Source: Escherichia coli phage Shin27. Taken from it: a DNA stretch of 64,000 nucleotides. Location of the stretch: the sequence record LC788709.1, one strand, 5' to 3'. This document shows, piece after piece, positions 9,291-56,979 of this stretch (positions are counted from its first letter, which is position 1; each line of letters opens with the position of its first letter). A program made the translations under genes and the position numbers. Under the pieces are notes generated by a model. That model searched no databases. It saw only the letters and a program-made list of their open reading frames with translations, and was not told the DNA's origin.

Positions 9291-9294
9291 AGTA

Positions 9295-23676: not shown

Positions 23677-24158
23677 TATCTCTTACCTCCTCCTGCTAGA
23701 GCGGTAATAAGATTCATATAGTTTTCGTCACCACTTCCAGCAATAATATTATTCTGAATATTAGTCTGGTTAGCCGGAGTACGGGCTGCTGCCTTCACTT
23801 TCTCCAGTTCTACCATCATTTTCATTTCTTCCATCTTCATCTTGTGCGCCTTCCAGAGAATATCCATGATATCCTGGTCAGAACCCATGCCAGTTTCTTC
23901 AAGTTCTTCCAGCTTACGCTTGATAACTTCGTCAAGAACTCCGAATAAGCGGTCACGATTACGGAAGCCACTTTCCATAAAGATATCGTTGAGATAGTTT
24001 TTAACTTCCCCACGATTCATTATATCACGGAATGCAATCTCGGACATTCCAAGACTACGAGCGGCGGCAGGAACATCACTACCGCACTGTAAATAGGCTT
24101 CAATAACATCCATGCCTTCGGGAGACATGAGATCGGGAACTAATACATCATTTGCCAT
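23676..24158 (-). CDS. terminase small subunit (putative, HTH)
   Basis: 160-aa ORF translationally coupled upstream of large subunit; helix-turn-helix-like segment. Confidence 0.5.
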
Positions 24159-24168
24159 ATATCCTCCT

Positions 24169-25950: not shown

Positions 25951-25975
25951 ACAATCTCCTTCTTTAAAAATGTAT

Positions 25976-26004
25976 TTGCTTAGATCCCTCTATTTTGCTA
26001 TAAT
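25976..26004 (+). promoter_or_regulatory. T5-type sigma70 promoter (TTGCTT-N17-TATAAT) for the llp-like gene
   Basis: consensus hexamers with 17-bp spacer, AT-rich leader ATATTTATAAATT, ~30 bp upstream of ATG at 26034. Confidence 0.6.
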
Positions 26005-26033
26005 ATATTTATAAATTAAACAGAGGAACGATT

Positions 26034-26300
26034 ATGAAAAAGTTACTAGCCATCGTAGTTGCAGCAGTAGTGTTGACGGGTTGTGTGCCAGCTCCCGAGC
26101 CATTTTGTAAGGCATATGTGAAGTCTTATGGTCATGTTGGTGAAGAACACTACGCTTTAGATATTCGAGAAGCACGTACTGTGGGCTACCGATTCCCTAA
26201 AACTCAGTTACGCACTAAGTTTGGGTGGTGGGATTTGTCACAGTTTGATCTCAAATATGGTGATTGCAAATTTAAACTAGAACAATCTGGTCACTTGTAA
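26034..26300 (+). CDS. llp: lipoprotein, Llp-like receptor-blocking / superinfection-exclusion candidate
   Basis: 88-aa ORF with signal peptide and lipobox LTGC; divergent from putative RBP gene; own sigma70 promoter. Confidence 0.55.
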   Translation: MKKLLAIVVAAVVLTGCVPAPEPFCKAYVKSYGHVGEEHYALDIREARTVGYRFPKTQLRTKFGWWDLSQFDLKYGDCKFKLEQSGHL

Positions 26301-26629
26301 TTAGTATAAAGTAAAAAGATCTCGAAGTAAACAAAAATTTTTATTTCTGGGATGAGGTACAGGTAGCAAACACAATGCAAGATGAAGAAAAGTCCTTTCA
26401 GGAACCTGTTAACTTTGAAATAAATCCCAGGAATAAAAAGCAATACATGATGCAATTGATGAAATCATTCAAGACGTCATAGAAGATACAATAGAAGACG
26501 TGATGGGAACATCCTTCTTACTAGAAGAATCCGGCTTCGACGAAGTAATGGATCTAATCGGGACAGTCGTAATGGTTCGTGCAATTGCTAGGGTATTCCA
26601 AATACCAAGACTATAGGAGAAGCAAAGAG

Positions 26630-26764
26630 ATGTCAGACGACAACAGAAGAAAGAACAGACGCGGGGAAGTGTACGAAAGTTGGATAAATAGTTTCGGATT
26701 CGGGACTGTGTTATTCTTTATCTTTGTACTCTTTTGGTTAGCAGCTATGGCGGGGTGGTTATAA
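26630..26764 (+). CDS. small membrane protein
   Basis: 44-aa ORF from ATG with AGGAG RBS, basic N-terminus and C-terminal TM helix; ORF track gives a longer GTG-start version from 26579. Confidence 0.35.
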   Translation: MSDDNRRKNRRGEVYESWINSFGFGTVLFFIFVLFWLAAMAGWL

Positions 26765-26868
26765 TGGAAGTAGTAATTATTACTTTACTAGTTGTGGTAA
26801 TTATAGGGCAGTGTATTTTAGATAACCACTTAGCTCGTATTGAACGTAAGCTGCGGGGAGATAAATAA
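26764..26868 (+). CDS. small membrane peptide
   Basis: 34-aa ORF, N-terminal TM helix, stop overlaps next start (TAATG). Confidence 0.3.
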   Translation: MEVVIITLLVVVIIGQCILDNHLARIERKLRGDK

Positions 26869-27062
26869 TGGATTGGTTAGGACTTATTACACTTGTAGTA
26901 TGGATTGTCTGGATTGTTGGATACATGACGTCACATCGTAATCGTATACAGAAGCTAGAGGATAAAGTCACCCAACTAAACATTAATATGGATAAGTTAC
27001 TGGACTCCCAACGTAATGATCGGGCGCGTATTCACCAACTTGAGAGGGAATTAGATGTTTAG
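26868..27062 (+). CDS. small membrane protein with coiled-coil tail
   Basis: 64-aa ORF, N-terminal TM, translationally coupled. Confidence 0.4.
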   Translation: MDWLGLITLVVWIVWIVGYMTSHRNRIQKLEDKVTQLNINMDKLLDSQRNDRARIHQLERELDV

Positions 27063-27300
27063 CTTTGTAGCTATCTTCATTATCGGAGTGCTTGCGGGGA
27101 TCTTCGGAACACTCGGGGCGATTAACAAGCATCGTGAATACGTTGCGGGAATATCGCGGGAGCTTTCGGAAAGGGAGCGGAGGTTTGCGGAGAAACGTGC
27201 GGAGTTTGAGCGGGAGTGGTCGGATGGATCTCGGGCGTCGCGGAGGAGATTTCGTATGTCAGAATCAGGAGACAAGCCGGTAGACCGGTGTTCCTCCTAA
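27055..27300 (+). CDS. small membrane protein with charged coiled-coil tail
   Basis: 81-aa ORF, N-terminal TM, R/E-rich C-terminus. Confidence 0.4.
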   Translation: MFSFVAIFIIGVLAGIFGTLGAINKHREYVAGISRELSERERRFAEKRAEFEREWSDGSRASRRRFRMSESGDKPVDRCSS

Positions 27301-27463
27301 GTTAGCGCTAATTACCAATTCTCGAAATCTCATAAGATTACACATGAAGGTGTGCCCAGAGGTTACCTAGATGAGAATGAGTCTCATTACCGCCCCGGTA
27401 CTTAGCAAGCTAATAGTCACACTATGTGATGATAACATAGTGTGACTATTTTATTTTTAATTG

Positions 27464-28198
27464 TTAGGCGACTTTTAATTTATCAATGAATTGTTGCGGG
27501 CTGCAACTATATTCTGCGCGTTCTTCCTCGGTCATACCTTCCCAACACATTTTTAAACGGTCGGCTAGGAATTGATAATCATTATCATCATCTAATGATT
27601 CATCAATAAAGGTTTCACCGATCAATGTTACGCCGATTGATAGGATATCATTAACGGCTTGAGCGTCCAGCGTTTTAAATCCAGCACTTGCCGCCGCCGA
27701 TAATACGCCTTTATGATCATCAATCATCGTAAAATCAGCGTTCGGATATAACTGTTTAAACAGTTCAAAGTAATAGCTTTTGTATACAGCGTCTTTACTA
27801 TGATATATTTCGCTAACCTTATCCGCTTCAAAGTATTTGTGTAATGTATCGCGAGAGAATACGCGGATATTGCTATTTCCGCGCCCTCGCAAGCCTTGTT
27901 TACGCAAATAAAAGTAATCGCTTTTAGACATAAGGCGCGCGGTACAAATAATATTTAAAGTATTTGCATCATTCATACATTGGCGCATATATTCAACCAA
28001 TGGCAATAAAGAATCCTGCATAATTAAATCATGTTTACAGGCTTCGCGTGAATACTTATTTAAATTTAAATTCCCGTTATCATCAAAGCAAGGCGCTACA
28101 CGGTGGAAAGAATTAATGATAGTTCCGTCTAAGTCCCAAATCATAACGCGGGAAATATGCGGGAAAGCGCGGGCAATATTCAAGGTTACTTGATTCAT
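27464..28198 (-). CDS. dmp: HAD-family 5'-deoxyribonucleotidase (T5 Dmp-like)
   Basis: 244-aa ORF with HAD motif I (IWDLDGTI); size and position next to A1-like gene. Confidence 0.65.
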   Translation of the reverse strand: MNQVTLNIARAFPHISRVMIWDLDGTIINSFHRVAPCFDDNGNLNLNKYSREACKHDLIMQDSLLPLVEYMRQCMNDANTLNIICTARLMSKSDYFYLRKQGLRGRGNSNIRVFSRDTLHKYFEADKVSEIYHSKDAVYKSYYFELFKQLYPNADFTMIDDHKGVLSAAASAGFKTLDAQAVNDILSIGVTLIGETFIDESLDDDNDYQFLADRLKMCWEGMTEEERAEYSCSPQQFIDKLKVA

Positions 28199-28285
28199 TT
28201 GTTACATTCTCCATTTAAGGGATTTAGGTTAATTCAATCTTGCCAGCTAATTATATTGGATTAGCTGGCAATGTTCAATTAACTA

Positions 28286-28678
28286 TTAATTAGTGAGGCC
28301 ATACGCTAGCGCGTCACCAATAAAGCTAATATCTTCACCATGTACGCTAGAACGAATCCCCGCGCAAGTGTAAACCATCGCGCTAGCTTCTGGATTGCAG
28401 ACCGGACACGGCTTAACAACTGCAAACGCTAGACCGGATTTAAGCGCATCAATAATAATTGTTTGCACTGTCAAAGTATCAGCGTAAACGCCTTTTGCTT
28501 TCGTATGGCTTGCCACTTTGCCGGTATCATAAGCAAAGGTAGTAACCTGCAAAGCGTCGTTATAATTCAGCAAATCAAAATTAACTTGCCCCGCCTCGAC
28601 GTGATAACGTTCACCATTAGAATAAACTAGAACGATGGAAGAAGTAGCACGATCAAAAGGAATGTTTTGGTTTTTCAT
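28286..28678 (-). CDS. hypothetical pre-early protein
   Basis: 130-aa ORF between dmp-like and A1-like genes. Confidence 0.4.
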   Translation of the reverse strand: MKNQNIPFDRATSSIVLVYSNGERYHVEAGQVNFDLLNYNDALQVTTFAYDTGKVASHTKAKGVYADTLTVQTIIIDALKSGLAFAVVKPCPVCNPEASAMVYTCAGIRSSVHGEDISFIGDALAYGLTN

Positions 28679-28710
28679 GTTTATGACTCCAGATTATTTA
28701 ATTACGGGAT

Positions 28711-28989
28711 TTATTGAAAAAATACATTTAAAGATAAATCAGTTTTACGAAAATATGTTTCGTCGCCGTCTTTCCTTTCTTGATTAAGGTAATCGCCTGT
28801 CATTACCTGAATATGATCTTTTTCGAAAAAGATCATATTTTCGCCAATATTACTATCCCATACGGCATACATTCCCGCGTACATTCCACGGGTAACTAAA
28901 TAAACGCAACTATCAAAAGACATTTCAGACCATGCAATATCTTCTAAACAATTGCTATCAGGGATAGATATATTAATTTTACTAGCCAT
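28711..28989 (-). CDS. hypothetical pre-early protein
   Basis: 92-aa ORF. Confidence 0.4.
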   Translation of the reverse strand: MASKINISIPDSNCLEDIAWSEMSFDSCVYLVTRGMYAGMYAVWDSNIGENMIFFEKDHIQVMTGDYLNQERKDGDETYFRKTDLSLNVFFQ

Positions 28990-29041
28990 TTAATAAACCT
29001 TTTATTAATGGCGGTATATTTCAACCGCCGATTAAATTTAA

Positions 29042-30706
29042 TTATGCAAAGAATTTACCGTTTTTGAAATCAATCAAAGTACGTTGCCCGTTTGCATAGG
29101 TAATTAAATGCGTTTGCGTCCAGCTTGACGCGCCCACGTTGTAGCCCATATCAAGGGAACCAGCAACGCCAGCGGTATAAACGCCGCCGTAAATGCTAGC
29201 CGTGTGAGTGTGACCAGTGTTAAGGCGTCCCAACTTTTTAAACTGCTTAGGATTGCCCCGACTGCCGTTAATGCCATTGTGACCATGTACGCCGCATTCA
29301 ATGCCAGCGATTTTAAAGGACTGGTCAGTAGTCAAAAAAATGGCGTTAAATTCGCATCCTGCAACGTTTCTAAGCGCATAATCTAACACGTTAAAGGTAT
29401 CATCCTTTTCAGCAATAGCGGCGTAAATCGCAGCGTTTAGACGGTGATACAGTTCCGCGTTTGCGGGATCATCTTTAATGTTTGCGTTACGATCATCTAA
29501 CCAGCGGGATAATGCTAAATCATGGTTAGATTCCACAATGATTGTTTGACTAAAATCACGTTCCATAGATTCTAATACGCGTCCAGTATCGATAAGATCA
29601 TCAATAACTTTATCACGTCCGGCGGCGTATTGTTTCGCAAGGAATACACCACTAGCGCGGTTATGATGGTTACGCGATGTAAAATCATGCACGTCATGAA
29701 TAAATTGATATTTCGGTTTAAGAATATCAAGCAAGCTGTTTTCACTAGCCCATGAAGCGACGGCGCAATCATCATCTAATTTTTCGGCGTGAATATCGCC
29801 ATATTGCAAGCCTAGAACATGATCGGACGTTTCAAAACATCCGGTAGGCATAGCGCAAACATTCAAATCATAGAACATTCCGCTTTCATCCATTGTTTCA
29901 ATCTGGCGAGCATAAAATTCGCCGTCGTCGTCGAACTCTACCAGCAAAGCGCCATAATTATGTAAAGCCTCAGCTTTTTGACCTGCTTTCTGCTGAATGT
30001 AGTTTTTAAGCGTAGCCGTTCCGGTTGAATACATACGGCACACTACTTCACCTTTTAACGCTGGCACACTTTCAGCGGTAATTTTAGCGTGACCAATTGC
30101 CAGACCTTCAATATTTAAAGCCGTGGCGGTTTCTGCGAATCCTGAAAGCGGGTAATCTGCCGTTGGTAAAACGTTAATTTCAGCCATGAAAGCAAAGCGG
30201 CGGTTATTTAAAAATACGTTTTTATCACAAACATATTTATCAAATGCGGGATCGTATTTAATACCGTTTGCCCCTTCCCCGTTCTGAAATCCGTTTTTGT
30301 TGTAAATGAATTTGCTAACAAGTAATTCAGCGCCGCAATATTCAGCGAATTTTTCCAGACTTGCTAAAAAGTTTTTATGCGGGAAAGTATTATTTTGAAT
30401 CGACGTTAGAATAAAACGGCGACCGGACTTAACTTCCCATTGCTCAACGGTGCTAGAAACAATTCCCGCCGCCTCTGGGCGATCATCGTTTTTAATCGCC
30501 TTTTCGGCTTTTGCCGCTTTCGGTTTCGCTGGTTTATTTGCTTCCAGCCAGTCACAAATTGCGGTCGAATGTTTCGGCGTACCATAAACAGCTTTTGAAA
30601 TATCGTCGCAAACTTCCAATTTAGTAGCGCGTAAACGCTTACCGTAGAAGTTAAAATCTGCGGCCATTTTCAAAATTTGAGCTTGTTTTTCTGCGGAAAT
30701 ATTCAT
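29042..30706 (-). CDS. A1: metallophosphoesterase, T5 A1-like (host DNA degradation / second-step transfer)
   Basis: 554-aa ORF with calcineurin-like motifs (GDIHAE, NHD, GHTHT); size matches T5 A1 as recalled. Confidence 0.65.
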   Translation of the reverse strand: MNISAEKQAQILKMAADFNFYGKRLRATKLEVCDDISKAVYGTPKHSTAICDWLEANKPAKPKAAKAEKAIKNDDRPEAAGIVSSTVEQWEVKSGRRFILTSIQNNTFPHKNFLASLEKFAEYCGAELLVSKFIYNKNGFQNGEGANGIKYDPAFDKYVCDKNVFLNNRRFAFMAEINVLPTADYPLSGFAETATALNIEGLAIGHAKITAESVPALKGEVVCRMYSTGTATLKNYIQQKAGQKAEALHNYGALLVEFDDDGEFYARQIETMDESGMFYDLNVCAMPTGCFETSDHVLGLQYGDIHAEKLDDDCAVASWASENSLLDILKPKYQFIHDVHDFTSRNHHNRASGVFLAKQYAAGRDKVIDDLIDTGRVLESMERDFSQTIIVESNHDLALSRWLDDRNANIKDDPANAELYHRLNAAIYAAIAEKDDTFNVLDYALRNVAGCEFNAIFLTTDQSFKIAGIECGVHGHNGINGSRGNPKQFKKLGRLNTGHTHTASIYGGVYTAGVAGSLDMGYNVGASSWTQTHLITYANGQRTLIDFKNGKFFA

Positions 30707-30814
30707 AACTAAATCAACTCCTATAAAGGGATAAATATTAATACTGGCAATATTGCCAAATATAACGCCTTGCCTGAAGTGAGGACAATTTAAAAGGCGT
30801 TATAATTTGCAATA

Positions 30815-31060
30815 TTATTCTAGAATTGGCATAAGACTAGAACTAAAACCGCAACTAATAGCCAGCGTTAAAAATATAATCGCTAGATATTTTTGTTTAT
30901 TAGCTTGACGTTTAAACATATCAGCGGCATAAGCTGAATTAATGCCGATAATAGAGATTATATATTTGCCGTAATTAAATATAAATATAGCGGCAACTAT
31001 AAATAAACCTAAAATAAACGCTTCACTAGGGAAGAAAATCATTTTAATAACTCCGGTCAA
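30815..31060 (-). CDS. small membrane protein
   Basis: 81-aa ORF with two predicted TM helices. Confidence 0.4.
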   Translation of the reverse strand: MTGVIKMIFFPSEAFILGLFIVAAIFIFNYGKYIISIIGINSAYAADMFKRQANKQKYLAIIFLTLAISCGFSSSLMPILE

Positions 31061-31100
31061 AGGGAAATTATAGCGGGGAATATTCCCCGCTAATTAGAAT

Positions 31101-31517
31101 TTATTCACCTGCGGCCTGTTTTACTTCCTCCGCTACGCCTAACAATTGCGCTACGGCGTCCAGCGTTTCCAGTTTAGCACTTTCAAGGCTTGCCAGATCG
31201 TCGGCATCTTTTACGATACCTGAATCAATGGCGTGTTTAGCGATGACGCGCACATAGTGAGCTTTACGAATTGAGCTACCGCCGCCAACTTTGCGAGGTT
31301 TATCGCTTTTCTGATAGGCTTTTGCGCTTGTCAGTTTAGAACGTACAGACACCGGACTAGCAGCACCAACGGCGGCGGCAATTTCTTTCAGGCCGTCACT
31401 GTTAGCAAATTCACTTCCGCTTTTAGCGACCATTTCAGAATACATAGAAACAGCTTTTTCGGTGTTTTCTTCGTTCCAAGAGAATTTTGCGGTTTTTTCG
31501 GTTTTAACGTTAGACAT
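31101..31517 (-). CDS. hypothetical pre-early protein (possible A2 equivalent by size and position)
   Basis: 138-aa ORF immediately upstream of A1-like gene. Confidence 0.35.
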   Translation of the reverse strand: MSNVKTEKTAKFSWNEENTEKAVSMYSEMVAKSGSEFANSDGLKEIAAAVGAASPVSVRSKLTSAKAYQKSDKPRKVGGGSSIRKAHYVRVIAKHAIDSGIVKDADDLASLESAKLETLDAVAQLLGVAEEVKQAAGE

Positions 31518-31805
31518 AATTTAATACTCCATTCAATTATTAATTAAGGGATTATGATTAACTAAATGTTAATCGCTATATATTCTATTAGCTAGAATAT
31601 ATATAACGGAAACATTTTATTTTTATTTCCAGTTTCAAGCGGTTTATTAATTCCCGAATATATTTATATTCTCACCTTACCCGGCTTGCCAGAGAATTAA
31701 TAAGGCAACATTGTATTTATACGCTGTTTATTATTCCGTTCACGCTAGGAATATTTCGAGTTATCTTTATTGCCTAACTAAGCATGATATGTAAGGCGCA
31801 TTAAT

Positions 31806-32057
31806 TTATGCGATAGCTTGCCATTTATCATCTTTCTGAATGATTTTTACAACGTCGCCAGATTTAACACGGACGTTATAAATAGGCTTGCCGTGGTTAC
31901 TGCGTTCCGTTTCCGCATAGACCGCTTCAATCTTATCAAAGGGATCAAGCGCCGCACCTTTAATACGTTCAGCTTTTCCAGTTAATTCATCCGTTTTAGT
32001 AACGAAAGGAATAAAAACGGATTGACCTACTTTCGGTGCGGTGATAACGTTTTGCAT
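31806..32057 (-). CDS. hypothetical protein
   Basis: 83-aa ORF with GGAG RBS. Confidence 0.4.
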   Translation of the reverse strand: MQNVITAPKVGQSVFIPFVTKTDELTGKAERIKGAALDPFDKIEAVYAETERSNHGKPIYNVRVKSGDVVKIIQKDDKWQAIA

Positions 32058-32223
32058 TTTTAATACTCCGGTTTATTGGGGGATTATTCCACAATAGCGC
32101 CTCGATACTTTGAAACGCTATTAGATTATAATCCGCTAGGAGTTAGCCTAAACATTACCGTTTTTCCAAATTGTTAAAGAGCAGTTACTACGGGGAACAT
32201 CTTAAAACCTATCGGCTAGCGTG

Positions 32224-32433
32224 TCAATCGTTTTTTAAACTTTTTTCGATTTGATGGGAGTTATATAAATCAATCATTATATTACGCCACACCATTTCCA
32301 GCCCTTGTTGCTTGCCTTTCTTGTATTGCTTGAATCTGTATTTTACAGATCGTTGCGCTACTGTCAACAAATTTTTTGTTCTGCTATCAAGCGACTTGAT
32401 AGGCTTGCCAGTGATCAAAAGCGTTTGTTTCAT
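32224..32433 (-). CDS. hypothetical basic protein
   Basis: 69-aa ORF with AAGGA RBS, Lys/Arg-rich. Confidence 0.35.
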   Translation of the reverse strand: MKQTLLITGKPIKSLDSRTKNLLTVAQRSVKYRFKQYKKGKQQGLEMVWRNIMIDLYNSHQIEKSLKND

Positions 32434-32840
32434 ATCGTCGATTCCTTATAATATCTAAGTTTACCGCCGATAGGCTTTAAGATGTTCCCTAATTTTTAAA
32501 GAGCATGGCAGGGTTTTGAAAGGTCAAACAGACTGTCAATCGCTGTTATCCCCGCCGTGTAGTTCGTCATTGCCGCCCTACGTGATAAATAATAGGAGAA
32601 TACCGAGAAGGGCGCAAGCGTATTTTTGTAAAGAAACGTAAAGAAAACCACTACTCGCAAACGTCCAGCGGCGCATTAAATTTAATGAAACGGGCGCGCG
32701 AATAACACCAAAACAACCATTTTAGCAAGTAATTTTTTTCATTTATATTTGCTTTGCCATACTTGACAAAATCTAAAATCCTCGTGGTGAGGTTTTCTCG
32801 GTGTATCCCTTATGATTGCCTATCCTTTCCTTTGAGGCGC

Positions 32841-32867
32841 TTAGAATGCGTTACAGAGCGTTTTAGA
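32841..32867. repeat. 27-bp exact direct repeat, copy 1
   Basis: TTAGAATGCGTTACAGAGCGTTTTAGA identical to 37085-37111. Confidence 0.8.
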
Positions 32868-33185
32868 CCCTGTTAATAACTTATACAAAAAGCAAAAATG
32901 AAATTTAATGAGTTATCCACTTGATTTTTCAAAAAAGTATTTTCTGCTGTTATTTTTCATTGACAAATAAGTTTAGACGTGCATTTATTGGTTAGCAGAC
33001 TAATAATCGCTAGGAGGATAATCACGCTGGTGGATTGTAACAGCCGAAACAGTTAGCGGACTATTAATACTTTAAAAACCTATTAGCCAACTAACTATTT
33101 CATAATATATAATATACACATAAATTAATGAGAAATAATAACTATGAGAAACTATCGGGCTAAGTGAGAACCACTATCATTTAGG

Positions 33186-33255
33186 TTATGCACAAAGCTA
33201 TCCACAGCACAAAATAACTTGACGCAATAGGCGACGTTTTGGCGACTTATCCACA
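33186..33255 (+). promoter_or_regulatory. DnaA-box cluster
   Basis: TTATGCACA 33186-33194, cTATCCACA 33198-33206, TTATCCACA 33247-33255. Confidence 0.5.
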
Positions 33256-33295
33256 GACTTATATACAGGTTATCCTACTGTATAAATATACAGGG
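33241..33295. repeat. inverted-repeat arm L (DnaA box + LexA-like box)
   Basis: TTATCCACA at 33247-33255 and TACTGTATAAATATACAG at 33276-33293; reverse-complement partner at 37141-37205. Confidence 0.65.
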
Positions 33296-33543
33296 TAGAA
33301 TGGTAGCAGTAACAACCGCAATCAAATTTAAGCGGCCTAGAACGCGCTACACGGCGTTTTCTCACTGCTACCCTTATTATAATAAAGCCTTGTGTACGCT
33401 TACAGAGAGCTAGAAATAGAAAACGCGCGATTATCATAAAAACGGGCAGTAGGCAAGGAATAAAAAACCTTTTCTTTTTTTCTTGCCCCTAGCGAACAAT
33501 TATCTATATCATTCACTCACCGATTAACGAGGGAGACAAAGAA

Positions 33544-34545
33544 ATGTCTACTGTAAGAATTGCAGTACCAGCAAACGCAACTATTATTAAAGGTAGTTTG
33601 CGCAACCTGCTAGATGGTAGTAGTGCGGCAAGTATTCAGCACACCGCCGCAATGGTTGAAAAAATTCACGAGGATATTTTAGATAATAATGATACTCATT
33701 ATTCAGTCGATGATTTCACGCTATTACTAGACCAGACAAGGGCGCTAGTAATTTTCAACCGTGATTATCACATTTTCCGTAATAGTCAGGGAACTGATAT
33801 TGATTTTATCATTGTTGGTTATAGTGAGTCTCATAGTGGTTACATTGCGCGATTATATAACGTGCAAGAAAAAGAGCAGGTAACAGCAACAAAAGTAAAT
33901 AATATCAGATTGGATAGTGTCGGATCGTTATTAAATAGTATCTGGCGTGAATTATCATCCAGTTATAAAGGTGCTGATAGTGACGCAATCGAAACAACTG
34001 GCGTATTGTGCTTTGAACGCGCTAGCGGTAACATGTTGATCCCTAACGATTATTTAGAGTATGGGAATGAATCAAACGTTGCAAACGCTGGATTTACACT
34101 TTTACCGCTTGACAATGTAGCAAAACAGGCTGTAAACTCTCAAACTTCAAGCGCAAATGCGCAAACTACTGAAAATAAAGGAAATATTATGTCTAAAGTA
34201 TCTTCTATCGTTGCCGCTAATAAATCCGCCGTTGTTAACGCTGCTAAACTGGAAGCGGGTAAAATTGCACTGACTCAAATCACAAAAGTAGCGGCGAAAA
34301 AAGCGCCGTTTATGATTAAAGGTTATATCGATACGCCGATCGGTCGCGTAGTGATCGCTAACCTGTTAAGCGTAGCGGTTGACCAGTACGCCCCGACTAA
34401 TGCGAAAGCGAAAGCGGTAGCAGGCGCGGCAATGGAAGCGGCAATGCTGGAAATGGTACAGAGTTTCAATATTGCGGAAATGATCGATGAAATGGTAAAA
34501 GGTATTGACATTTCTACTTTTACCACTAACACCGAAAGTGAGTAG
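33544..34545 (+). CDS. hypothetical protein, first gene of plus-strand pre-early cassette
   Basis: 333-aa ORF with GAGGGAG RBS; Ala/Lys-rich C-terminal half; no recognisable motif. Confidence 0.55.
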   Translation: MSTVRIAVPANATIIKGSLRNLLDGSSAASIQHTAAMVEKIHEDILDNNDTHYSVDDFTLLLDQTRALVIFNRDYHIFRNSQGTDIDFIIVGYSESHSGYIARLYNVQEKEQVTATKVNNIRLDSVGSLLNSIWRELSSSYKGADSDAIETTGVLCFERASGNMLIPNDYLEYGNESNVANAGFTLLPLDNVAKQAVNSQTSSANAQTTENKGNIMSKVSSIVAANKSAVVNAAKLEAGKIALTQITKVAAKKAPFMIKGYIDTPIGRVVIANLLSVAVDQYAPTNAKAKAVAGAAMEAAMLEMVQSFNIAEMIDEMVKGIDISTFTTNTESE

Positions 34546-34612
34546 TAATAACTAGCGGGGATTATTTCCCCGCGTTACTATTTCCCTGTTAATTGTTAGG
34601 AGACTACTTATT

Positions 34613-34921
34613 ATGCAACTGAATCAAATCATGTTGACGCAATTAGCCGAAAAAATGCCGAATAGCCCCCATGTTAATTATTCGGACGATCAAAGCAATA
34701 TTCCTATATGGGAAAAACAAGGCCGTCCCTTTTTATGGGAACATGTAGAAAGCGCGAATAATTATCATGCTTTCTTTGATCGTGGTTATGGCTGGCTATG
34801 TATTTTTGTAGACGAAACTTTGCTGGATTATGGAATGGATGAAATAGTCCGTGATGACGTAATTTTCTTAAATAAAGGATTTTACAGTGTAGCAAATTCT
34901 CTTTATTTCCCTGCTAATTAA
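34613..34921 (+). CDS. hypothetical protein
   Basis: 102-aa ORF with AGGAG RBS. Confidence 0.5.
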   Translation: MQLNQIMLTQLAEKMPNSPHVNYSDDQSNIPIWEKQGRPFLWEHVESANNYHAFFDRGYGWLCIFVDETLLDYGMDEIVRDDVIFLNKGFYSVANSLYFPAN

Positions 34922-34934
34922 TAGGAGGCTAGTT

Positions 34935-35429
34935 ATGTCAGAAGAAAAATATGGCTTTTCACTAGAAAGTGTGAATGAAGCTAAACACGATATGATAGTT
35001 TTAGTTGATTGTCATACTGGCTATTGCGGGGAAGGCTGGACGGAGGAACATTTTGTTCCCGCTGGCTGTGATCTGGACGCTTTCGCAAACGAACACGCAT
35101 ATGATAATGCTTCTCGTTTCGGTAGTGATGGGGAAGAAGATGAAGAAACAGGGGAATGGATTGAAAATGATAATGTTTATGCGAGTATTTATCATTATCA
35201 ATTGAGTAAATCCGGTATTTATGTAAATGGCGGCGATCCTATTAATACCGTTATGAAACTAATTATTAAACACGGTGGCGCGGAAATAATTGGTAACAAG
35301 GCGTTATTATATGCAAATCGATTAAAACAGCTTGTTTATATTCCTGATAATTCCCGTTGGGATGAATATGCCGTTTTACAGAAAGAACTAAAACGCTGTT
35401 TCGGTGTGGAAGCATTAGAAATAGTCTAA
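34935..35429 (+). CDS. hypothetical acidic protein (DNA-mimic / anti-restriction candidate)
   Basis: 164-aa ORF with TAGGAGG RBS; strongly acidic segment DGEEDEETGEWIENDN. Confidence 0.5.
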   Translation: MSEEKYGFSLESVNEAKHDMIVLVDCHTGYCGEGWTEEHFVPAGCDLDAFANEHAYDNASRFGSDGEEDEETGEWIENDNVYASIYHYQLSKSGIYVNGGDPINTVMKLIIKHGGAEIIGNKALLYANRLKQLVYIPDNSRWDEYAVLQKELKRCFGVEALEIV

Positions 35430-35536
35430 TGTAAAGTTTTGTAAAGGTCGCCTATTATGGCGACCTTTTTTGTTATAATGCCTTTACACCGAAACGGTGG
35501 GTTGAAAATTTTCCCTGATTTCTAGGAGGCGTTAAA

Positions 35537-35764
35537 ATGGTACATTCATCATCTTCTGCAATTTTTAACGGTATGGAATGGGTATCCGTTCCCGCTATTG
35601 TCAGCGTTATGGTTTCTGAGTTCGGCATAGGTAAAACTTATGTTACCATTCAGGGGCTTTACGACAATGACAAGATTGACCAGCAAACCGCCGGATTTTT
35701 GCTGGATGAATTGAAAGCTAACCATTGCACTAAAAAGCAAGCGGCAAAAATTGTTTTAATGTAA
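35537..35764 (+). CDS. hypothetical protein
   Basis: 75-aa ORF with TAGGAGG RBS. Confidence 0.45.
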   Translation: MVHSSSSAIFNGMEWVSVPAIVSVMVSEFGIGKTYVTIQGLYDNDKIDQQTAGFLLDELKANHCTKKQAAKIVLM

Positions 35765-35810
35765 TTAATAAAGGGGGTATATTATCCCCTAATTTCTAGG
35801 AGCTAATAAA

Positions 35811-35960
35811 ATGGTTATTTTTCGATCTATTCTAGCTAGTATCTTGGGCGCTATTTTATCACTGTTTGTAATAGCTTTCGGCGTTAACGTGGTTATTATT
35901 GGAGCAGGTATCGCTGGGTTTTCTTACTTGTTAGGCTGTATGACTGGTAAAGGGGAATAA
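35811..35960 (+). CDS. small membrane peptide
   Basis: 49-aa hydrophobic ORF with TAGGAG RBS; below ORF-track size cutoff. Confidence 0.35.
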   Translation: MVIFRSILASILGAILSLFVIAFGVNVVIIGAGIAGFSYLLGCMTGKGE

Positions 35961-35962
35961 AA

Positions 35963-36175
35963 ATGTTAAAGAATGTTTCCCTTGCCCGTTCTAAAGGTTT
36001 TAAGCTGGTGGATGTTAACACGTTCGAGCGTCCAGATTGTAAAATCGAATATGTAGCACGCAACAAAAACGCTTTCCGTGTTACTGAAAAGAAATTTGAC
36101 AAGCGCGGAAATTTGGTAGCCGAAACGGTTAAACACTTTGCTACTTTTTACGCTGCGTTTCGTGGGGTATTATGA
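35963..36175 (+). CDS. hypothetical protein
   Basis: 70-aa ORF tightly packed after preceding ORF. Confidence 0.45.
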   Translation: MLKNVSLARSKGFKLVDVNTFERPDCKIEYVARNKNAFRVTEKKFDKRGNLVAETVKHFATFYAAFRGVL

Positions 36176-36273
36176 GATCCTTATATATTGCTCTAGCGTT
36201 TGCTACCGTTGGCGTTGTTTGCTCATTCGCTGCATTTGTTCTAAAAATGTACCTGATATTTTCCCAGCTTTAG
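36172..36273 (+). CDS. small membrane peptide
   Basis: 33-aa hydrophobic ORF overlapping previous stop (ATGA). Confidence 0.25.
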   Translation: MRSLYIALAFATVGVVCSFAAFVLKMYLIFSQL

Positions 36274-36284
36274 GAGCTTGACAA

Positions 36285-36632
36285 ATGGTTATTTATGAGG
36301 GTAATCGCTTTGTTACTAATTGCCGTCCGGCATTATTAGCAAACTATTTAAATCAGCTTTCCCCTGTTTATAAAGGCGTGGTTAACATCTATGAAGGCAA
36401 AGCGCACTATAGAATTAATGCCGTTGTCGCTCGCGAGCTTGCCTTTCAGTTTCTTACTTTTAACTCATGCGATATTCAGGTTATGGGTGAGTCTTTGATT
36501 GCAGAAAATGAAGATGAATTTATTAACATTTTCCGCAAAGTATGTACAGAGCGCCTGATTATGAAAGGCGCATATATTCAATCAACCGCTGATAGTATTG
36601 AAACAGCGTTTCGAAAAATTGTAAATGAATAG
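36285..36632 (+). CDS. hypothetical protein
   Basis: 115-aa ORF with TAGGAG RBS. Confidence 0.5.
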   Translation: MVIYEGNRFVTNCRPALLANYLNQLSPVYKGVVNIYEGKAHYRINAVVARELAFQFLTFNSCDIQVMGESLIAENEDEFINIFRKVCTERLIMKGAYIQSTADSIETAFRKIVNE

Positions 36633-36755
36633 CTGGTGGCGTAAAACGCAATCCCATAAATCTAATAATACCGCTGGGAAACATTCCCAGCGTTTACGAT
36701 TTGGGAACGGCTTCACAATGTTAATAATAATCATTCTCATTCTAGGAGCAATGGC

Positions 36756-36995
36756 ATGGCTGTAAGAATTTTACGATATGTAGAACGTAAAGAAACCGAT
36801 ATTATGCAGCATCATTTAACTGATGGGCAATACGCGCAATTTTTAGAAATGCAGAAAAGCGGAGCTAGTACGGCGGCGCTAGGGGCGTGGATCAATTCAG
36901 TTTCAACGTGTACGCATTTTGATTCATACGGGTATACGCCAGCCGAAACCGTCCAGATCTTTGACGACTACGAGAAGGAATACATAGCAGACTAA
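36756..36995 (+). CDS. hypothetical protein, last gene of cassette
   Basis: 79-aa ORF with TAGGAG RBS. Confidence 0.45.
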   Translation: MAVRILRYVERKETDIMQHHLTDGQYAQFLEMQKSGASTAALGAWINSVSTCTHFDSYGYTPAETVQIFDDYEKEYIAD

Positions 36996-37084
36996 TAATA
37001 GCGGGGCGCAACTATCGGCCCCGCCTTTTCTGCCTGCAAACAAATTTCCCCTTATTAAAATACCTCCTCCAAAAATAAACGCGT

Positions 37085-37111
37085 TAGAATGCGTTACAGA
37101 GCGTTTTAGAG
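37085..37111. repeat. 27-bp exact direct repeat, copy 2
   Basis: identical to 32841-32867. Confidence 0.8.
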
Positions 37112-37140
37112 CTATATTAGAGTTATTCACTACGTAGGAA

Positions 37141-37205
37141 TACTGTATATTTATACAGTAGAATAACCTGTGGATAAGTCAGTGGATAACGCCTCAAAAT
37201 CGCTA
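37141..37205. repeat. inverted-repeat arm R (LexA-like box + DnaA boxes)
   Basis: TACTGTATATTTATACAGTA at 37141-37160, TGTGGATAA at 37169-37177. Confidence 0.65.
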
Positions 37206-37251
37206 GGATTTTGTCAAGTCAAATCGTGCTGTTAATAAACCTGTGGATAAC
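37169..37251 (-). promoter_or_regulatory. DnaA-box cluster
   Basis: reverse complement of TTATCCACA at 37169-37177 and 37243-37251, near-match at 37181-37189. Confidence 0.5.
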
Positions 37252-37269
37252 TTAAATAGCAGTGTTTCT

Positions 37270-37420
37270 CACTTCGCTTTCTAAATGCGAATCATTCTCA
37301 TTATGCGACTCATTCGTATTCAATTCTGTAAATGATAATCATTCCCATTCCACTTTCTAAATGCGAGTAGTTCTCATTCGCATTCAACTTCTCAAATGCG
37401 AATCAATCTCATTATCAGTT
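37270..37420. repeat. three copies of ~25-bp motif (CTTTCTAAATGCGAATCATTCTCATT family)
   Basis: copies near 37277, 37344, 37385. Confidence 0.6.
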
Positions 37421-37463
37421 GCATTTCGGCAGGCAGGGCATTTTCTATTTGCCCTGCGCTTTT

Positions 37464-38065
37464 GTGCAAATCCGACATCTGCCCCCACGGATTACGTGCC
37501 AGCGTGCATGTGCGAATCCGACAATTTTTGGTAGTGTGCAAATCCGATGGGAAATATTTTTTATATGTGCGAATCCGACAATGAATTTTCCTAAAAACTC
37601 CAGCAATCCGCAACTGCGATGCAATCCAGCTGGATTTACTAGAGTATGCGCAAATCCGACATGAGTTTATTTGTGCAAAACCGACAAGATTTTTGTGACT
37701 TCGATGAGAGGGTGTGTGATTGTGAGGGTTTGGGGAGAAGTGCGAATCCGATGAGATTTTGGGAGGAACTACGGAAGGAGCAGCGGTGATGGTGCTTTAG
37801 CACCGGTTTGCTGCATTTTTGAGGATAATGCGGGATGTTTTGGCTAGAATTGAGATTAGGGGAGATAAAGCGAAATTTTATTAGCAAAATGGGGCAAAAT
37901 CGCTTGACAAGTGAAAATTCCTGTGGCTCTAAAAAACTCAGGCAAATATGGGCCTTCGGCCCGAAATAATGCTGCTATTTTCAGTGTTCCTAAAAACTTT
38001 GGAGACTCCTATCAATGTGCAAATCCGACCATAAATTTCTAGAAACACAGTGTGCAAATCCGATA
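37464..38065. repeat. dispersed array of ~10 copies of 14-bp motif GTGCRAATCCGAYR
   Basis: copies at 37464, 37510, 37538, 37567, 37648, 37673, 37740, 38017, 38052, degenerate at ~37603; irregular spacing. Confidence 0.75.
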
Positions 38066-38230
38066 GCAATTTCCAGAAATGTGTTTTGGAAAAATGTCTC
38101 CTAGAAATAACCGCCCTCCCTATAACCGCCCTGTATTAAACCGCCTATTGCTGGAGTTTCTAGGAACATGAAAACCGCCTGAGTTGGCGAGAGTTTTCCT
38201 AGAAACTTAGGAGTCTACTAGAAAGTGTTG
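38030..38230. repeat. cluster of TTCTAGAA-type palindromes and AACCGCC repeats
   Basis: TTTCTAGAAAC, TCCTAGAAA, TTTCTAGGAAC, TTCCTAGAAAC plus four AACCGCC copies at 38100-38170. Confidence 0.6.
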
Positions 38231-38528
38231 TGCTATCCTAGCAGATGAGCGGCAACAGGTGTATCATCTTGAACATTAATTTATCTATTCAACAGTATTA
38301 GTTTTTATATAAGTATAAGATCCCCAGGGGATTGTGAGAGATGCTCCACCCCTGGGATACGAATTGCGTGAGATGGTACAAAACTTCTGAAGATTTCCCT
38401 AGCCCTCCGACAAGCTACGGGGGAAATAGAAGTTTCCCATCCACCATCCGTATCCGGGTGGATCTCTTTATTCTATGTTATTTCATAGAGTTATTATAAC
38501 ATGCAGAAATCATAACGTCAAGTAGAGT

Positions 38529-39419: not shown

Positions 39420-40030
39420 TAACGACCTCTAGCCTTATCTGCATCAATAGCTTCGAATACTTTCGTTAACATTTCTTCAAGCTCACCTTCTTTGCTAGGA
39501 TTGCTCAAACGAATAGTATATGAGTTCCTAGAAACTCCTGAGTCTTCTTGTGCTCCGCGATCTTTTGCAAAGCCCATCATTGCAACGCCAGCTTTATTCC
39601 ACTCGTCTACGCTAGATGCTTCCCCAAATTTATATGATTGCGTATTGCTTACCACGCCACCACAAGGAACATTGTGCATATCCGGCATTAATCTTTTATC
39701 GGAATTATTCAGCATTGCGATTGGTCCCGACTGCCACGGATCTCGAATAGTCACTGGAGTACTCGGGCGGTTCACTTCAGTCTTCACGAGTTTGTATCCA
39801 GCATCGATTAGTGCATTAATCAGATTATCAGCCGGGATACGAGCCGTGCCAAAGATAGCACGAGCATTCATAAGCTTAGCCTGAAATTCCTTGCAACCTT
39901 GAAGATCAGTGTGCAAAAACGACAGTTGCATAGATTTAAACTGTACTGTAGCAGTCAGATCTTTAAAGCTGTAATCCCATGTGTCGAGTTCATGATCTGC
40001 AACTACTTTAATGGTTTGTTGTGTAAACAT
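39419..40030 (-). CDS. hypothetical early protein
   Basis: 203-aa ORF. Confidence 0.5.
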   Translation of the reverse strand: MFTQQTIKVVADHELDTWDYSFKDLTATVQFKSMQLSFLHTDLQGCKEFQAKLMNARAIFGTARIPADNLINALIDAGYKLVKTEVNRPSTPVTIRDPWQSGPIAMLNNSDKRLMPDMHNVPCGGVVSNTQSYKFGEASSVDEWNKAGVAMMGFAKDRGAQEDSGVSRNSYTIRLSNPSKEGELEEMLTKVFEAIDADKARGR

Positions 40031-56978: not shown

Positions 56979-56979
56979 A

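What the first reader, a model, noticed from the sequence alone, without database searches (positions are those of the whole stretch)
27464..30706. Pre-early dmp-like and A1-like genes and a compositional shift across 26.3-37 kb
A HAD 5'-nucleotidase and a 554-aa metallophosphoesterase match the T5 dmp/A1 pre-early pair in size and motifs. The whole 26.3-37 kb stretch is visibly richer in G+C (frequent GCG/CGC/CCG codons) than the AT-rich early region. This fits a terminal-repeat / first-step-transfer region, but the second repeat copy is outside this window.
Basis: partly seen in the sequence, partly recalled or inferred. Interest (0 to 1): 0.45.

Follow-up and report, generated by a model that had tools for sequence, protein, structure and literature searches.

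The report
T5-type pre-early terminal repeat, CpG-rich
This is the well-known "first-step-transfer" terminal repeat of a T5-like phage, carrying the dmp, A1 and A2 genes; it is not richer in G+C than the rest of the genome, but it has a sharply bounded CpG/GpC-rich sequence signature that I did not find described in the searchable literature.

Summary
The window is an Epseptimavirus (T5-like, Demerecviridae) genome. Its closest record is E. coli phage Wa28.

**Genes.** The two ORFs are true orthologues of T5 Dmp (92% aa) and T5 A1 (90% aa), and A2 lies next to them. An AlphaFold model of A1 (pLDDT 90) has a metallophosphoesterase fold. Its nearest structures are PolD-DP1, SbcD and Mre11.

**Terminal repeat.** The ends of more than ten complete relatives, T5 included, map the repeat to 27354-37929. 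The window reads late genes, then repeat, then early genes, with one repeat copy. That is a collapsed or concatemer-junction arrangement.

**Composition.** The "richer in G+C" claim is wrong: 39.3% against 39.95% for the whole window. The impression of frequent GCG/CGC/CCG codons is real.
- CpG o/e is 1.2-1.7 in each 1-kb bin from 27 to 37 kb (1.07 in the last). Elsewhere it is 0.36-1.05.
- Dinucleotide distance δ* is 210 against a mean of 54 within the rest of the genome.
- The block coincides with the repeat. It also occurs in T5 and across Demerecviridae, but not around A1 homologues in other phages.
- Repeat genes prefer CpG across codon borders (OR 2.5). The rest of the genome avoids it (OR 0.6-0.7). 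E. coli is neutral.

**Also seen.** The repeat holds three conserved, co-oriented Chi sites and no CCWGG sites.

The biology is known. The compositional compartment appears undescribed, and its cause is unresolved.

The parts
27354..37929 (.). Terminal repeat (TR), the first-step-transfer DNA. It is 10,576 bp and present once in the window.
   Evidence: Position 1 of the EscoHU1 left repeat maps to 27354, and the last base of its right repeat maps to 37929. The right termini of eight complete T5-like genomes, T5 included, map to 37927-37930 (a ninth to 37722); alignments from the left termini run to 27353-27370 in six genomes and stop about 90-130 nt short in the rest, T5 included. A dinucleotide model trained on T5 picks 27448..37981 as the best segment, at 245 nats against 8.6 for the next best. 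An order-2 model gives 27009..38151, so the left edge is uncertain by about 350 nt.
27464..28198 (-). dmp, deoxynucleoside-5'-monophosphatase (244 aa)
   Evidence: 92% identical over full length to T5 Dmp. It is the first gene inside the left end of the repeat, as in T5 and EscoHU1. PHROG 415, E 9e-57. HAD motif I is readable; Pfam HAD matches are sub-threshold only, E 0.06-0.12.
28286..28678 (-). Homologue of T5.002, function unknown
   Evidence: PHROG 4576, E 9e-78. Syntenic with T5 and EscoHU1.
28711..28989 (-). Small pre-early ORF in the position of T5.003 (homology to T5.003 itself not tested; the T5 DNA alignment skips it), function unknown
   Evidence: PHROG 18783, E 3e-64. Syntenic.
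29042..30706 (-). A1 (554 aa), a metallophosphoesterase-fold protein. In T5 it is essential, required for second-step transfer, and necessary and sufficient for host DNA degradation.
30815..31042 (-). Small membrane protein, homologue of T5.005
   Evidence: PHROG 4820, E 2e-35. Same position as EscoHU1_163/005.
31101..31517 (-). A2, a DNA-binding protein required for second-step transfer
   Evidence: 89% identical to T5 A2. PHROG 1725.
31806..32057 (-). Homologue of T5.007 (DUF7177)
   Evidence: Pfam PF23801, E 2e-44. DNA aligns to T5 4270-4522.
32224..32433 (-). ORF in the position of T5.008 (hdi), with promoter-like sites inside and just downstream of it
   Evidence: DNA aligns to T5 4681-5259. 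Sigma-70-like sites at 32367-32340 (11 of 12 matches) and 32227-32199 on the - strand. In T5 the promoters P-H22 and P-D/E20 lie in the same place.
32434..33543 (.). Central divergent control region. It holds one arm of the long inverted repeat (33159-33293), DnaA boxes at 33186 and 33247, a Chi site at 33026, and a promoter-like site at 33483-33512 (+).
33544..34545 (+). Homologue of T5.011 (DUF7566), first gene of the rightward pre-early operon
   Evidence: Pfam PF24450, E 2e-140. PHROG 4263.
34613..36995 (+). Remainder of the rightward pre-early operon. ORFs at 34613-34921, 34935-35429, 35537-35764, 35811-35960, 35963-36175 (T5.014-like), 36285-36632 (T5.015-like) and 36756-36995.
   Evidence: ORF lists. 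DNA alignments to T5 7514-8631 and to EscoHU1. PHROG hits. In T5, gene 015 encodes the Ung-dependent nickase.
36996..38528 (.). Non-coding region of the injection-stop-signal type. It straddles the right end of the repeat. It holds the second arm of the inverted repeat (37143-37277), DnaA boxes at 37169 and 37242, and an 18-nt direct repeat present seven times (37462-38032).
   Evidence: Aligns to T5 9287-10664, which includes the annotated iss at 9140-10149. Same architecture as described in bioRxiv 10.1101/866236.
33026..33033 (+). Chi octamer GCTGGTGG
   Evidence: Conserved in 20 of 22 homologous loci.
36004..36011 (+). Chi octamer GCTGGTGG, inside the T5.014-like ORF
   Evidence: Conserved in 40 of 40 homologous loci whose flanks are as low as 83% identical. 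Also present in T5 at 8127.
36632..36639 (+). Chi octamer GCTGGTGG
   Evidence: Conserved in 9 of 9 homologous loci.

Best explanation
**What it is.** The region is the long direct terminal repeat, the first-step-transfer (FST) DNA, of a T5-like Epseptimavirus. It spans window 27354-37929.

**How it works (known T5 biology).**
- Host RNA polymerase transcribes two divergent pre-early operons from the central control region (32.4-33.5 kb).
- A1 (29042-30706), a metallophosphoesterase-fold protein related in fold to the PolD-DP1, SbcD and Mre11 nucleases, drives host DNA degradation. Together with A2 (31101-31517) it allows the rest of the genome to enter.
- Dmp (27464-28198) dephosphorylates the released dNMPs.

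**What is shown here.** Orthology, synteny, repeat boundaries by homology, the A1 fold, and the stop-region anatomy.

**What is new here.** The repeat has the same G+C as the rest of the genome but a separate oligonucleotide compartment. CpG and GpC are over-represented; AG/CT and GA/TC are under-represented. This holds in coding and non-coding DNA, and CpG is actively preferred across codon borders. The rest of the genome avoids CpG.

**Inferred cause (about 0.4 on its own).** FST DNA is the only part of the genome that must function before host takeover. It is exposed to host restriction systems and nucleases, and it is translated before the phage tRNA genes (56.8-63.3 kb) are inside the cell. 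It is therefore under a different selective regime. That regime would purge many defence target words and host-rare codons and shift synonymous choice into CG/GC-containing words.
For: **Identity**
- DNA is 99.7% identical to phage Wa28 over window 24001-31581 and 94-96% identical to many Epseptimaviruses with annotated dmp, A1 and terminal repeats.
- Protein identities to T5 are 92% (Dmp), 90% (A1) and 89% (A2).
- Termini of complete genomes map to 27354 and 37929.
- A 135-nt inverted repeat, DnaA boxes and tandem 18-mers occur as in the T5 iss region.

**Composition**
- G+C is equal, but CpG o/e is 1.41 vs 0.74 and GpC 1.57 vs 1.10.
- δ* is 210 against the rest of the genome; chunks of the rest differ from each other by 54 on average and 115 at most.
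- The same holds in T5, with the step at its repeat end.
- δ* between repeat and outside is 195-245 in T5-like and Klebsiella phages, 129-220 in more distant Demerecviridae, and 18-72 around A1 homologues of other phage families.
- Non-coding repeat DNA shares the signature.
- Context test for synonymous C before G: OR 2.5 in the repeat, 0.60 in late genes, 0.73 in early genes, about 1.0 in E. coli.

**Selective-regime inference**
- Only sites within the FST region make T5-like phages sensitive to restriction (PMC10644984).
- Repeat share of known target sites: CCWGG 0 of 52, CAGCAG 2 of 78, CAGAG 8 of 111, Esp1396I 0 of 17, EcoR124I 0 of 15, EcoRI 0 of 11.
- CCWGG is absent against 8-12 expected from the repeat's own tri- and tetranucleotide content.
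- Palindrome O/E is 0.79-0.84 in the repeat and 0.94-0.96 elsewhere.
- E. coli-rare codons occur at 41 per 1000 codons in the repeat and 62-77 elsewhere.
- Eight of ten codons cognate to phage tRNAs are used less in the repeat and none more.
Against: **Identity**
- Only one copy of the repeat is in the window. Terminal redundancy of this particular phage is therefore inferred from relatives, not observed.
- Pfam, NCBIfam and PDB sequence searches do not recognise A1.
- Dmp is recognised as HAD only below threshold.

**Proposed cause of the composition**
- The host shows no CpG context preference (OR about 1), so the repeat overshoots rather than mimics the host.
- δ* to E. coli is no smaller for the repeat (142) than for the rest of the genome (130).
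- CAI against highly expressed E. coli genes is not raised (p 0.59 and 0.12).
- C-ending two-fold codons and CTG are not raised.
- Site depletion is confounded with the general AG/CT deficit.
- The signature is also present in non-coding DNA, which translation cannot explain.
Confidence: 0.9

Rival explanations
1. The compositional block comes from a process specific to the terminal repeat, not from selection on first-entering DNA. The repeat is re-synthesised when it is duplicated at packaging. It also forms long heteroduplexes when ends recombine into concatemers. Context-biased mismatch repair or a different polymerase would then give it its own mutational equilibrium.
For: The block coincides with the repeat boundaries to within about 100-350 nt. 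It covers coding and non-coding DNA and all three codon phases. It is family-wide. Three conserved, co-oriented Chi sites suggest the repeat is a recombination substrate.
Against: G+C is not raised, unlike classical GC-biased conversion. No known repair bias favours both CpG and GpC while disfavouring AG/GA. The FST stop point and the repeat end lie within about 1 kb of each other, so the boundary argument does not separate this from the exposure hypothesis. Depletion of CCWGG and type III sites is not predicted.
Confidence: 0.25
2. The shift is only codon adaptation. Pre-early genes are translated with the host tRNA pool because the phage tRNA genes lie on second-step DNA.
For: The tRNA genes lie at 56.8-63.3 kb, outside the repeat. 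Host-rare codons are fewer in the repeat, 41 against 62-77 per 1000. AGA, AGG, CTA, CCA, GGA and AAG are used less; CGC, GGC and CCG more. CAI against average E. coli genes is higher (p 2e-4).
Against: Choice of C3 depends on the next codon's first base, which tRNA supply does not predict (OR 2.5). Non-coding repeat DNA has the signature. CAI against ribosomal-protein genes is not raised. CTG, TTC, TAC, ATC and GAC are not raised.
Confidence: 0.1
3. The block is a horizontally acquired island of foreign origin, and its signature has not yet drifted to match the rest of the genome.
For: δ* of 210 is as large as between unrelated organisms.
Against: G+C is identical to the rest of the genome. 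The block is present in every Demerecviridae lineage sampled, from E. coli to Vibrio phages, so it is ancient and would have drifted to match. A1 homologues in other phage families sit in compositionally ordinary DNA.
Confidence: 0.03
4. In this particular phage the region is single-copy, with no terminal redundancy, and merely homologous to the T5 repeat.
For: Only one copy is in the window. The closest record, Wa28, is 111 kb and holds the region once.
Against: Records of about 110 kb are the usual collapsed form. Relatives deposited with both ends are 118-123 kb, and their termini map exactly to 27354 and 37929. The stop-signal architecture is intact.
Confidence: 0.03

Closest known systems
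Bacteriophage T5 left terminal repeat / first-step-transfer region (NC_005859, 1-10219)
   Same: The gene order is the same: dmp, 002, 003, A1, 005, A2, 007, hdi on one strand; a divergent control region; then 011-017 on the other strand; then the injection stop region. Protein identity is 89-92%. The long inverted repeat carries DnaA boxes in both. The CpG/GpC-rich signature and Chi sites on the same strand are shared.
   Different: DNA identity is about 79% (a different genus, Epseptimavirus). There is no hegG homing endonuclease. Extra small ORFs lie at 34613-35429. There are three Chi sites instead of two, and no CCWGG sites instead of two.
Escherichia phage EscoHU1 (NC_133119) and E. coli phage Wa28 (LC788710), genus Epseptimavirus
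   Same: DNA identity is 94% (EscoHU1) and 93-99.7% (Wa28). EscoHU1 carries annotated left and right repeats of 9,914 bp whose ends define 27354 and 37929 in the window.
   Different: The window is a mosaic. It is nearly identical to Wa28 up to 31581 and then only 93-97% identical. The inferred repeat is 10,576 bp, because of insertions relative to EscoHU1.
Calcineurin-like metallophosphoesterase nucleases (archaeal PolD DP1 exonuclease, SbcD/Mre11)
   Different: No sequence-level match exists to any Pfam, NCBIfam or PDB family. A1 has an extra N-terminal helical domain and a middle beta domain. No Rad50/SbcC partner is known. Nuclease activity of purified A1 has not yet been shown, according to the 2026 preprint.
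Restriction-site avoidance and type III orientation bias in first-entering phage DNA (T7; FST of T5-like phages, PMC10644984)
   Same: Known enterobacterial target sites are depleted in the repeat. Type III sites are strand-biased: AGACC 7:0, CAGAG 7:1, and CAGCAG 0:7 in T5.
   Different: Here the whole 10.6-kb compartment differs in dinucleotide usage, not only at particular sites. GC-only palindromes such as GCGC and CGCG are enriched in absolute terms.

Membership tests
T5 Dmp (deoxynucleoside-5'-monophosphatase) orthologue | Full-length high identity to T5 Dmp | tested here: met
   224 of 244 residues identical (92%), no gaps
T5 Dmp (deoxynucleoside-5'-monophosphatase) orthologue | Position: outermost gene at the left end of the terminal repeat, transcribed towards the terminus | tested here: met
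   The gene ends 110 nt inside the mapped terminus, as in EscoHU1 and T5
HAD-superfamily phosphatase (Dmp) | Recognised HAD domain with catalytic motif I, DxDx(T/V) | tested here: inconclusive
   Motif D22-L-D24-G-T26 is present in the sequence. Pfam Hydrolase and HAD_2 match only at E 0.06 and 0.12, below their cut-offs. The single-sequence structure model is unusable, pLDDT 36.5.
HAD-superfamily phosphatase (Dmp) | 5'-dNMP phosphatase activity | not testable with these tools
   Activity is known for the T5 enzyme from the literature cited
T5 A1 orthologue | Full-length high identity and synteny with A2 | tested here: met
   498 of 556 residues identical (90%). A2 lies 395 nt upstream with the small membrane-protein gene between them, as in T5.
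Calcineurin-like metallophosphoesterase superfamily (A1) | Conserved metal-binding motifs | tested here: met
   D304, H306, D338, D341, N394, H395, H474, H499 and H501 are invariant in 41 homologues down to 41% identity and in 16 sequences that include other phage families
Calcineurin-like metallophosphoesterase superfamily (A1) | Metallophosphoesterase fold | tested here: met
Calcineurin-like metallophosphoesterase superfamily (A1) | Match to the Pfam Metallophos family models | tested here: not met
   No Pfam hit even at E<=10, and none among the precomputed domains of 120 homologues. Membership holds at fold level only.
T5-type long direct terminal repeat / FST DNA | Two identical copies at the two ends of virion DNA | not testable with these tools
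   One copy in the window. Raw reads are not available. Relatives carry both copies.
T5-type long direct terminal repeat / FST DNA | Boundaries homologous to the physical termini of complete relatives | tested here: met
   Right termini of eight of nine complete genomes map to 37927-37930; left termini to about 27354, reached within 20 nt by alignments from six genomes
T5-type long direct terminal repeat / FST DNA | Injection-stop architecture: paired long inverted repeats with DnaA boxes and a repeat-rich non-coding end | tested here: met
   135-nt inverted repeat at 33159-33293 and 37143-37277, four consensus DnaA boxes in the arms, and an 18-nt repeat present seven times
G+C-rich compositional island | Higher G+C than the surrounding genome | tested here: not met
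   0.393 against 0.3995 for the whole window. 76% of equal-sized windows are as G+C-rich or richer.

The most novel reading that the evidence does not exclude
The first-step-transfer terminal repeat of T5 and its whole family is a distinct compositional compartment maintained by selection.
- Its G+C is the same as the rest of the genome, but CpG pressure has the opposite sign: preferred in the repeat, avoided elsewhere, neutral in the host.
- Many host defence target words are lacking.
- It carries conserved Chi sites, all oriented to stop RecBCD entering from the right-hand terminus. Such a stop would give a 3' end able to invade the left repeat and prime concatemer formation.

If this is true, sequence texture itself marks which phage DNA must survive in an untamed cell. 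That may bear on the old question of how T5 DNA is told apart from host DNA while A1 destroys the chromosome.
Probability: 0.3. Interest if true: 0.65.

Novelty: new member of a known kind. Interest (0 to 1): 0.42.

Why it matters
The genes and the repeat are textbook T5 biology, so the finding as written adds little beyond annotating one more Epseptimavirus. The closest record, Wa28, is deposited with every gene labelled "hypothetical protein".

A 10.6-kb block has the same G+C as the rest of the genome but a radically different dinucleotide and codon signature. It is bounded by the repeat ends, conserved from E. coli to Vibrio phages, and absent around A1 genes in other phage families.

- **Practical use.** It gives a simple sequence-only way to locate the first-step / terminal-repeat region in collapsed assemblies.
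- **Testable handle.** CpG recoding, Chi mutations and restriction-site insertion could probe what first-entering DNA has to withstand.
- **Caution for methods.** Genome-wide codon-usage or k-mer host-prediction analyses of these phages should not average over the two compartments.

Tried and rejected
**Searches that found nothing useful**
- Pfam, NCBIfam and PDB sequence searches gave nothing for A1 and only sub-threshold HAD hits for Dmp.
- A 16-sequence A1 profile against PDB sequences gave only a spurious dehydroquinase hit.
- Single-sequence AlphaFold of Dmp was unusable, pLDDT 36.5.

**Explanations for the composition, tested and rejected**
- G+C enrichment: rejected.
- Plain mimicry of the host signature: δ* to E. 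coli is not smaller for the repeat (142 vs 130), and E. coli has no CpG context bias.
- Adaptation to highly expressed host codons: CAI is not different.
- Avoidance of type I-E CRISPR PAMs: AAG is still present at 31 per kb and ATG is unchanged.
- Helical (10-11 bp) periodicity of AA/TT or CG/GC, that is, DNA bending: not enhanced.
- One repeated GC-rich motif: the enriched hexamers are diverse.
- Specific avoidance of the T5 nick consensus GCGC in the rest of the genome: GCGC there is near its trinucleotide-based expectation, 42 vs 50.

**Other checks**
- A second repeat copy in the window: none.
- Literature searches found no description of the compositional block or of Chi sites in T5.
- Davison 2015 (PMC4743489) was not held in the library. 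Wang et al. 2005 was not looked up. Prior description in either cannot be excluded.


Full report
**What the window is.** A 4-kb query around the finding matches 475 phage records. The best is E. coli phage Wa28 (LC788710, genus Epseptimavirus, Demerecviridae) at 100% over 27000-31000, followed by many Salmonella and Escherichia T5-like phages at 94-96%. In those records the genes under the match are annotated as deoxynucleoside-5'-monophosphatase, A1 protein and terminal repeat. Beyond 31581 the identity to Wa28 drops to 93-97%, so the window is a mosaic relative and not that record.

**The observation.** They are full-length orthologues of T5 Dmp (92% aa) and T5 A1 (90%). T5 A2 (89%) lies at 31101-31517.

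Neither Dmp nor A1 is recognised by Pfam, NCBIfam or PDB sequence searches. The only hits are sub-threshold HAD matches at the DxDGT motif of Dmp.

I therefore tested the metallophosphoesterase claim for A1 by structure.
- A 41-sequence alignment of homologues gave an AlphaFold2 model with mean pLDDT 90.4.
- Foldseek gave the same kind of hits, but weakly.
- The metal-ligand residues D304, H306, D338, D341, N394, H395, H474, H499 and H501 are invariant in all homologues aligned.

This agrees with a 2026 preprint that calls A1 a predicted metallo-phosphatase with structural features of break-repair and proofreading nucleases. That preprint shows A1 is necessary and sufficient for host DNA degradation in vivo (10.64898/2026.04.02.716235).

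**The terminal repeat.**
- EscoHU1 (NC_133119) has annotated left and right repeats. Base 1 of its left repeat aligns to window 27354, and the last base of its right repeat aligns to 37929. The right-end locus continues leftwards into the late genes, and the left-end locus continues rightwards into the early genes.
- The physical right ends of eight complete T5-like genomes in IMG/VR, T5 included, map to 37927-37930 (a ninth to 37722). Alignments from the left ends run to within about 20 nt of 27354 in six genomes and stop about 90-130 nt short in the others, T5 included.
- The repeat is therefore 27354-37929 (10,576 bp), not 26.3-38.4 kb.
- The window contains late genes (receptor-binding protein, llp) directly left of the repeat and early genes directly right of it, with no second copy. 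That order exists only in a concatemer junction or a collapsed assembly. So "second copy outside the window" cannot be assumed.

Inside the repeat the anatomy is that of T5.
- A leftward operon runs dmp through the hdi-like ORF.
- A central control region holds sigma-70-like promoters.
- A rightward operon begins with the DUF7566 gene.
- A non-coding stop region follows. It has a 135-nt inverted repeat (33159-33293 and 37143-37277), four consensus DnaA boxes and seven copies of an 18-nt repeat. This is as described by Davison (10.1101/866236).

**The compositional claim.** G+C in 26.3-37 kb is 0.393, against 0.3995 for the whole window, so the claim as stated fails.
- GCG, CGC, CCG and CGG are two to four times more frequent there.
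- CpG observed/expected is 1.2-1.7 in each 1-kb bin from 27 to 37 kb and 1.07 in the 37-38 kb bin. It is 0.36-1.05 in all 53 other bins.
- The symmetrised dinucleotide signature differs from the rest of the genome by δ* = 210. Equal-sized chunks of the rest differ from each other by 54 on average and 115 at most.
- Dinucleotide values in the repeat against the rest: CG 1.41 vs 0.74; GC 1.57 vs 1.10; AA/TT 1.20 vs 1.01; AG/CT 0.81 vs 1.15; GA/TC 0.82 vs 1.03.
- Tetranucleotide usage of the repeat is uncorrelated with the rest (r = -0.07) but correlates at 0.91 with the T5 repeat.
- A dinucleotide model trained only on T5 (repeat against the rest) picks 27448-37981 as the best segment of the window. 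It scores 245 nats against 8.6 for the runner-up.

**Generality.**
- T5 itself shows the same step at its repeat end: CpG 1.31 and GpC 1.52 against 0.76 and 1.10.
- In loci fetched around A1 homologues, δ* between repeat and outside is 195-245 in all 18 T5-like loci and a Klebsiella phage. It is 129-220 in distant Demerecviridae, including Vibrio phages. It is only 18-72 around A1 homologues of unrelated phages (Caulobacter phiCbK-like and metagenomic contigs).
- The block is thus a property of the Demerecviridae terminal repeat, not of the A1 gene.

**What kind of force.**
- Codon usage of repeat genes correlates poorly with both late and early genes (r 0.60 and 0.68), although those two sets agree with each other at 0.94.
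- Raised codons: GCG, CCG, ACG, CGC, GGC, TGC. Lowered codons: AGA, AGG, GAG, AAG, CTA, CCA.
- Host-rare codons are fewer in the repeat (41 against 62-77 per 1000), and CAI against average E. coli genes is higher (p 2e-4). CAI against ribosomal-protein genes is not (p 0.59 and 0.12). CTG, TTC, TAC, ATC and GAC are not raised.
- CpG excess is equal at all three codon phases (1.5) and also holds in non-coding repeat DNA: CpG 1.17-1.28 and GpC about 1.5, against 0.80-0.84 and 1.06-1.13.
- In repeat genes a synonymous C rather than T is used 47% of the time before a G-starting codon but 26% otherwise. The odds ratio is 2.5 (p 3e-15), and it holds in both operons separately. In late and early genes the odds ratios are 0.60 and 0.73. 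In E. coli genes they are 0.96-1.09.
- tRNA supply cannot produce dependence on the next codon, and the host is neutral. The repeat therefore actively prefers CpG while the rest of the same genome avoids it.

**Possible causes.** The best-supported idea is that first-step DNA lives under a different selective regime.
- Published work shows restriction systems affect T5-like phages only through sites in this region (PMC10644984).
- Consistent with that, the repeat has 0 of 52 CCWGG sites (8-12 expected from its own composition), 2 of 78 CAGCAG, 8 of 111 CAGAG, 0 of 17 Esp1396I, 0 of 15 EcoR124I and 0 of 11 EcoRI sites.
- It also shows stronger palindrome avoidance than the rest of the genome, and strand-biased type III sites.
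- The phage tRNA genes lie at 56.8-63.3 kb on second-step DNA.

This does not explain why CpG should be positively preferred. A repeat-specific repair or synthesis bias remains a serious rival. Several other ideas were tested and rejected: G+C-biased conversion, PAM avoidance, helical periodicity, a single repeated motif, and specific avoidance of the nick consensus.

**Chi sites.**
- The window has four Chi octamers. Three are on the + strand inside the repeat (33026, 36004, 36632). None is on the - strand of the repeat, and the fourth is at 41904 (-).
- Expected numbers are 0.05-0.13 per strand of the repeat.
- The octamers are intact in 20 of 22, 40 of 40 and 9 of 9 homologous loci whose flanks are only 81-94% identical.
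- T5 has two, a Klebsiella phage two to three, and Proteus phage Stubb one inside its repeat plus two just beyond it, nearly always on the same strand.
- From established knowledge of RecBCD, this orientation is recognised by an enzyme entering from the right, that is, from the right-hand genome terminus. It is not the orientation for the first-injected left end.
- Whether this protects that end, or seeds invasion of the left repeat for concatemer formation, is speculation.
- I found no paper mentioning Chi in T5.

**Verdict.** The identification is correct and already known. The boundaries need correcting, and the G+C statement is wrong. Behind it lies a strong, sharply bounded, family-wide dinucleotide compartment. 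I could not find it described in the accessible literature; Davison 2015 was not held in the library and Wang et al. 2005 was not looked up.

Noticed in passing
window 33026-33033, 36004-36011, 36632-36639 (+ strand); 41904-41911 (- strand): Three Chi octamers (GCTGGTGG), all on the + strand and all inside the terminal repeat. About 0.05-0.13 are expected per strand. They are conserved in 20 of 22, 40 of 40 and 9 of 9 homologous loci and are present on the same strand in T5, Klebsiella and Proteus relatives. Their orientation suits RecBCD entering from the right-hand terminus.
   Followed up: partly
window 27354-37929: No CCWGG (EcoRII/Dcm) site in the repeat against 52 in the rest of the window (8-12 expected). 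T5 has 2 against 58. Type III sites are strand-biased in the repeat: AGACC 7:0, CAGAG 7:1 and CAGCAG 0:2 in the window, and CAGCAG 0:7 in T5.
   Followed up: partly
window 27354-37929 vs the rest: GCGC, the core of the annotated T5 nick consensus PuGCGC, occurs 53 times in the repeat (5.0 per kb) and 42 times in the other 53 kb (0.8 per kb). Eleven of those 42 lie in the first 2 kb of the window.
   Followed up: partly
window 56821-63335 (- strand): A cluster of 21 tRNA genes, including Lys-CTT, Gln-CTG, Leu-TAG, Pro-TGG, Gly-TCC and Arg-ACG. It lies on second-step DNA, about 19-25 kb beyond the right end of the repeat.
   Followed up: partly
window 24001-40533 vs L002 (Wa28): Mosaicism. The window is 99.7% identical to Wa28 up to 31581. 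It then drops to 93-97%, with small indels through the rest of the repeat and into the early region.
   Followed up: no
window 26954-27353: The 400 nt just left of the homology-defined repeat boundary are also CpG-dense. They contain the Arg-rich 81-aa ORF at 27055-27300. In some relatives the corresponding kilobase is CpG-rich and in others it is not, so the true left boundary in this phage may lie up to about 350 nt further left.
   Followed up: partly
loci L057-L078, L086 (IMG/VR) and records: A1 homologues at 28-46% identity occur in phages outside Demerecviridae: Caulobacter phiCbK-like, Rhizobium, Rhodobacter, Dinoroseobacter, Flavobacterium and Cellulophaga. Some carry an N-terminal HTH domain (PF13384, PF04218). 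There is no compositional step around them.
   Followed up: partly
window 190-3240 (- strand): A 1016-aa ORF at the start of the window. Its first 2 kb are the only other GCGC-dense stretch and have high GpC o/e (up to 2.16).
   Followed up: no
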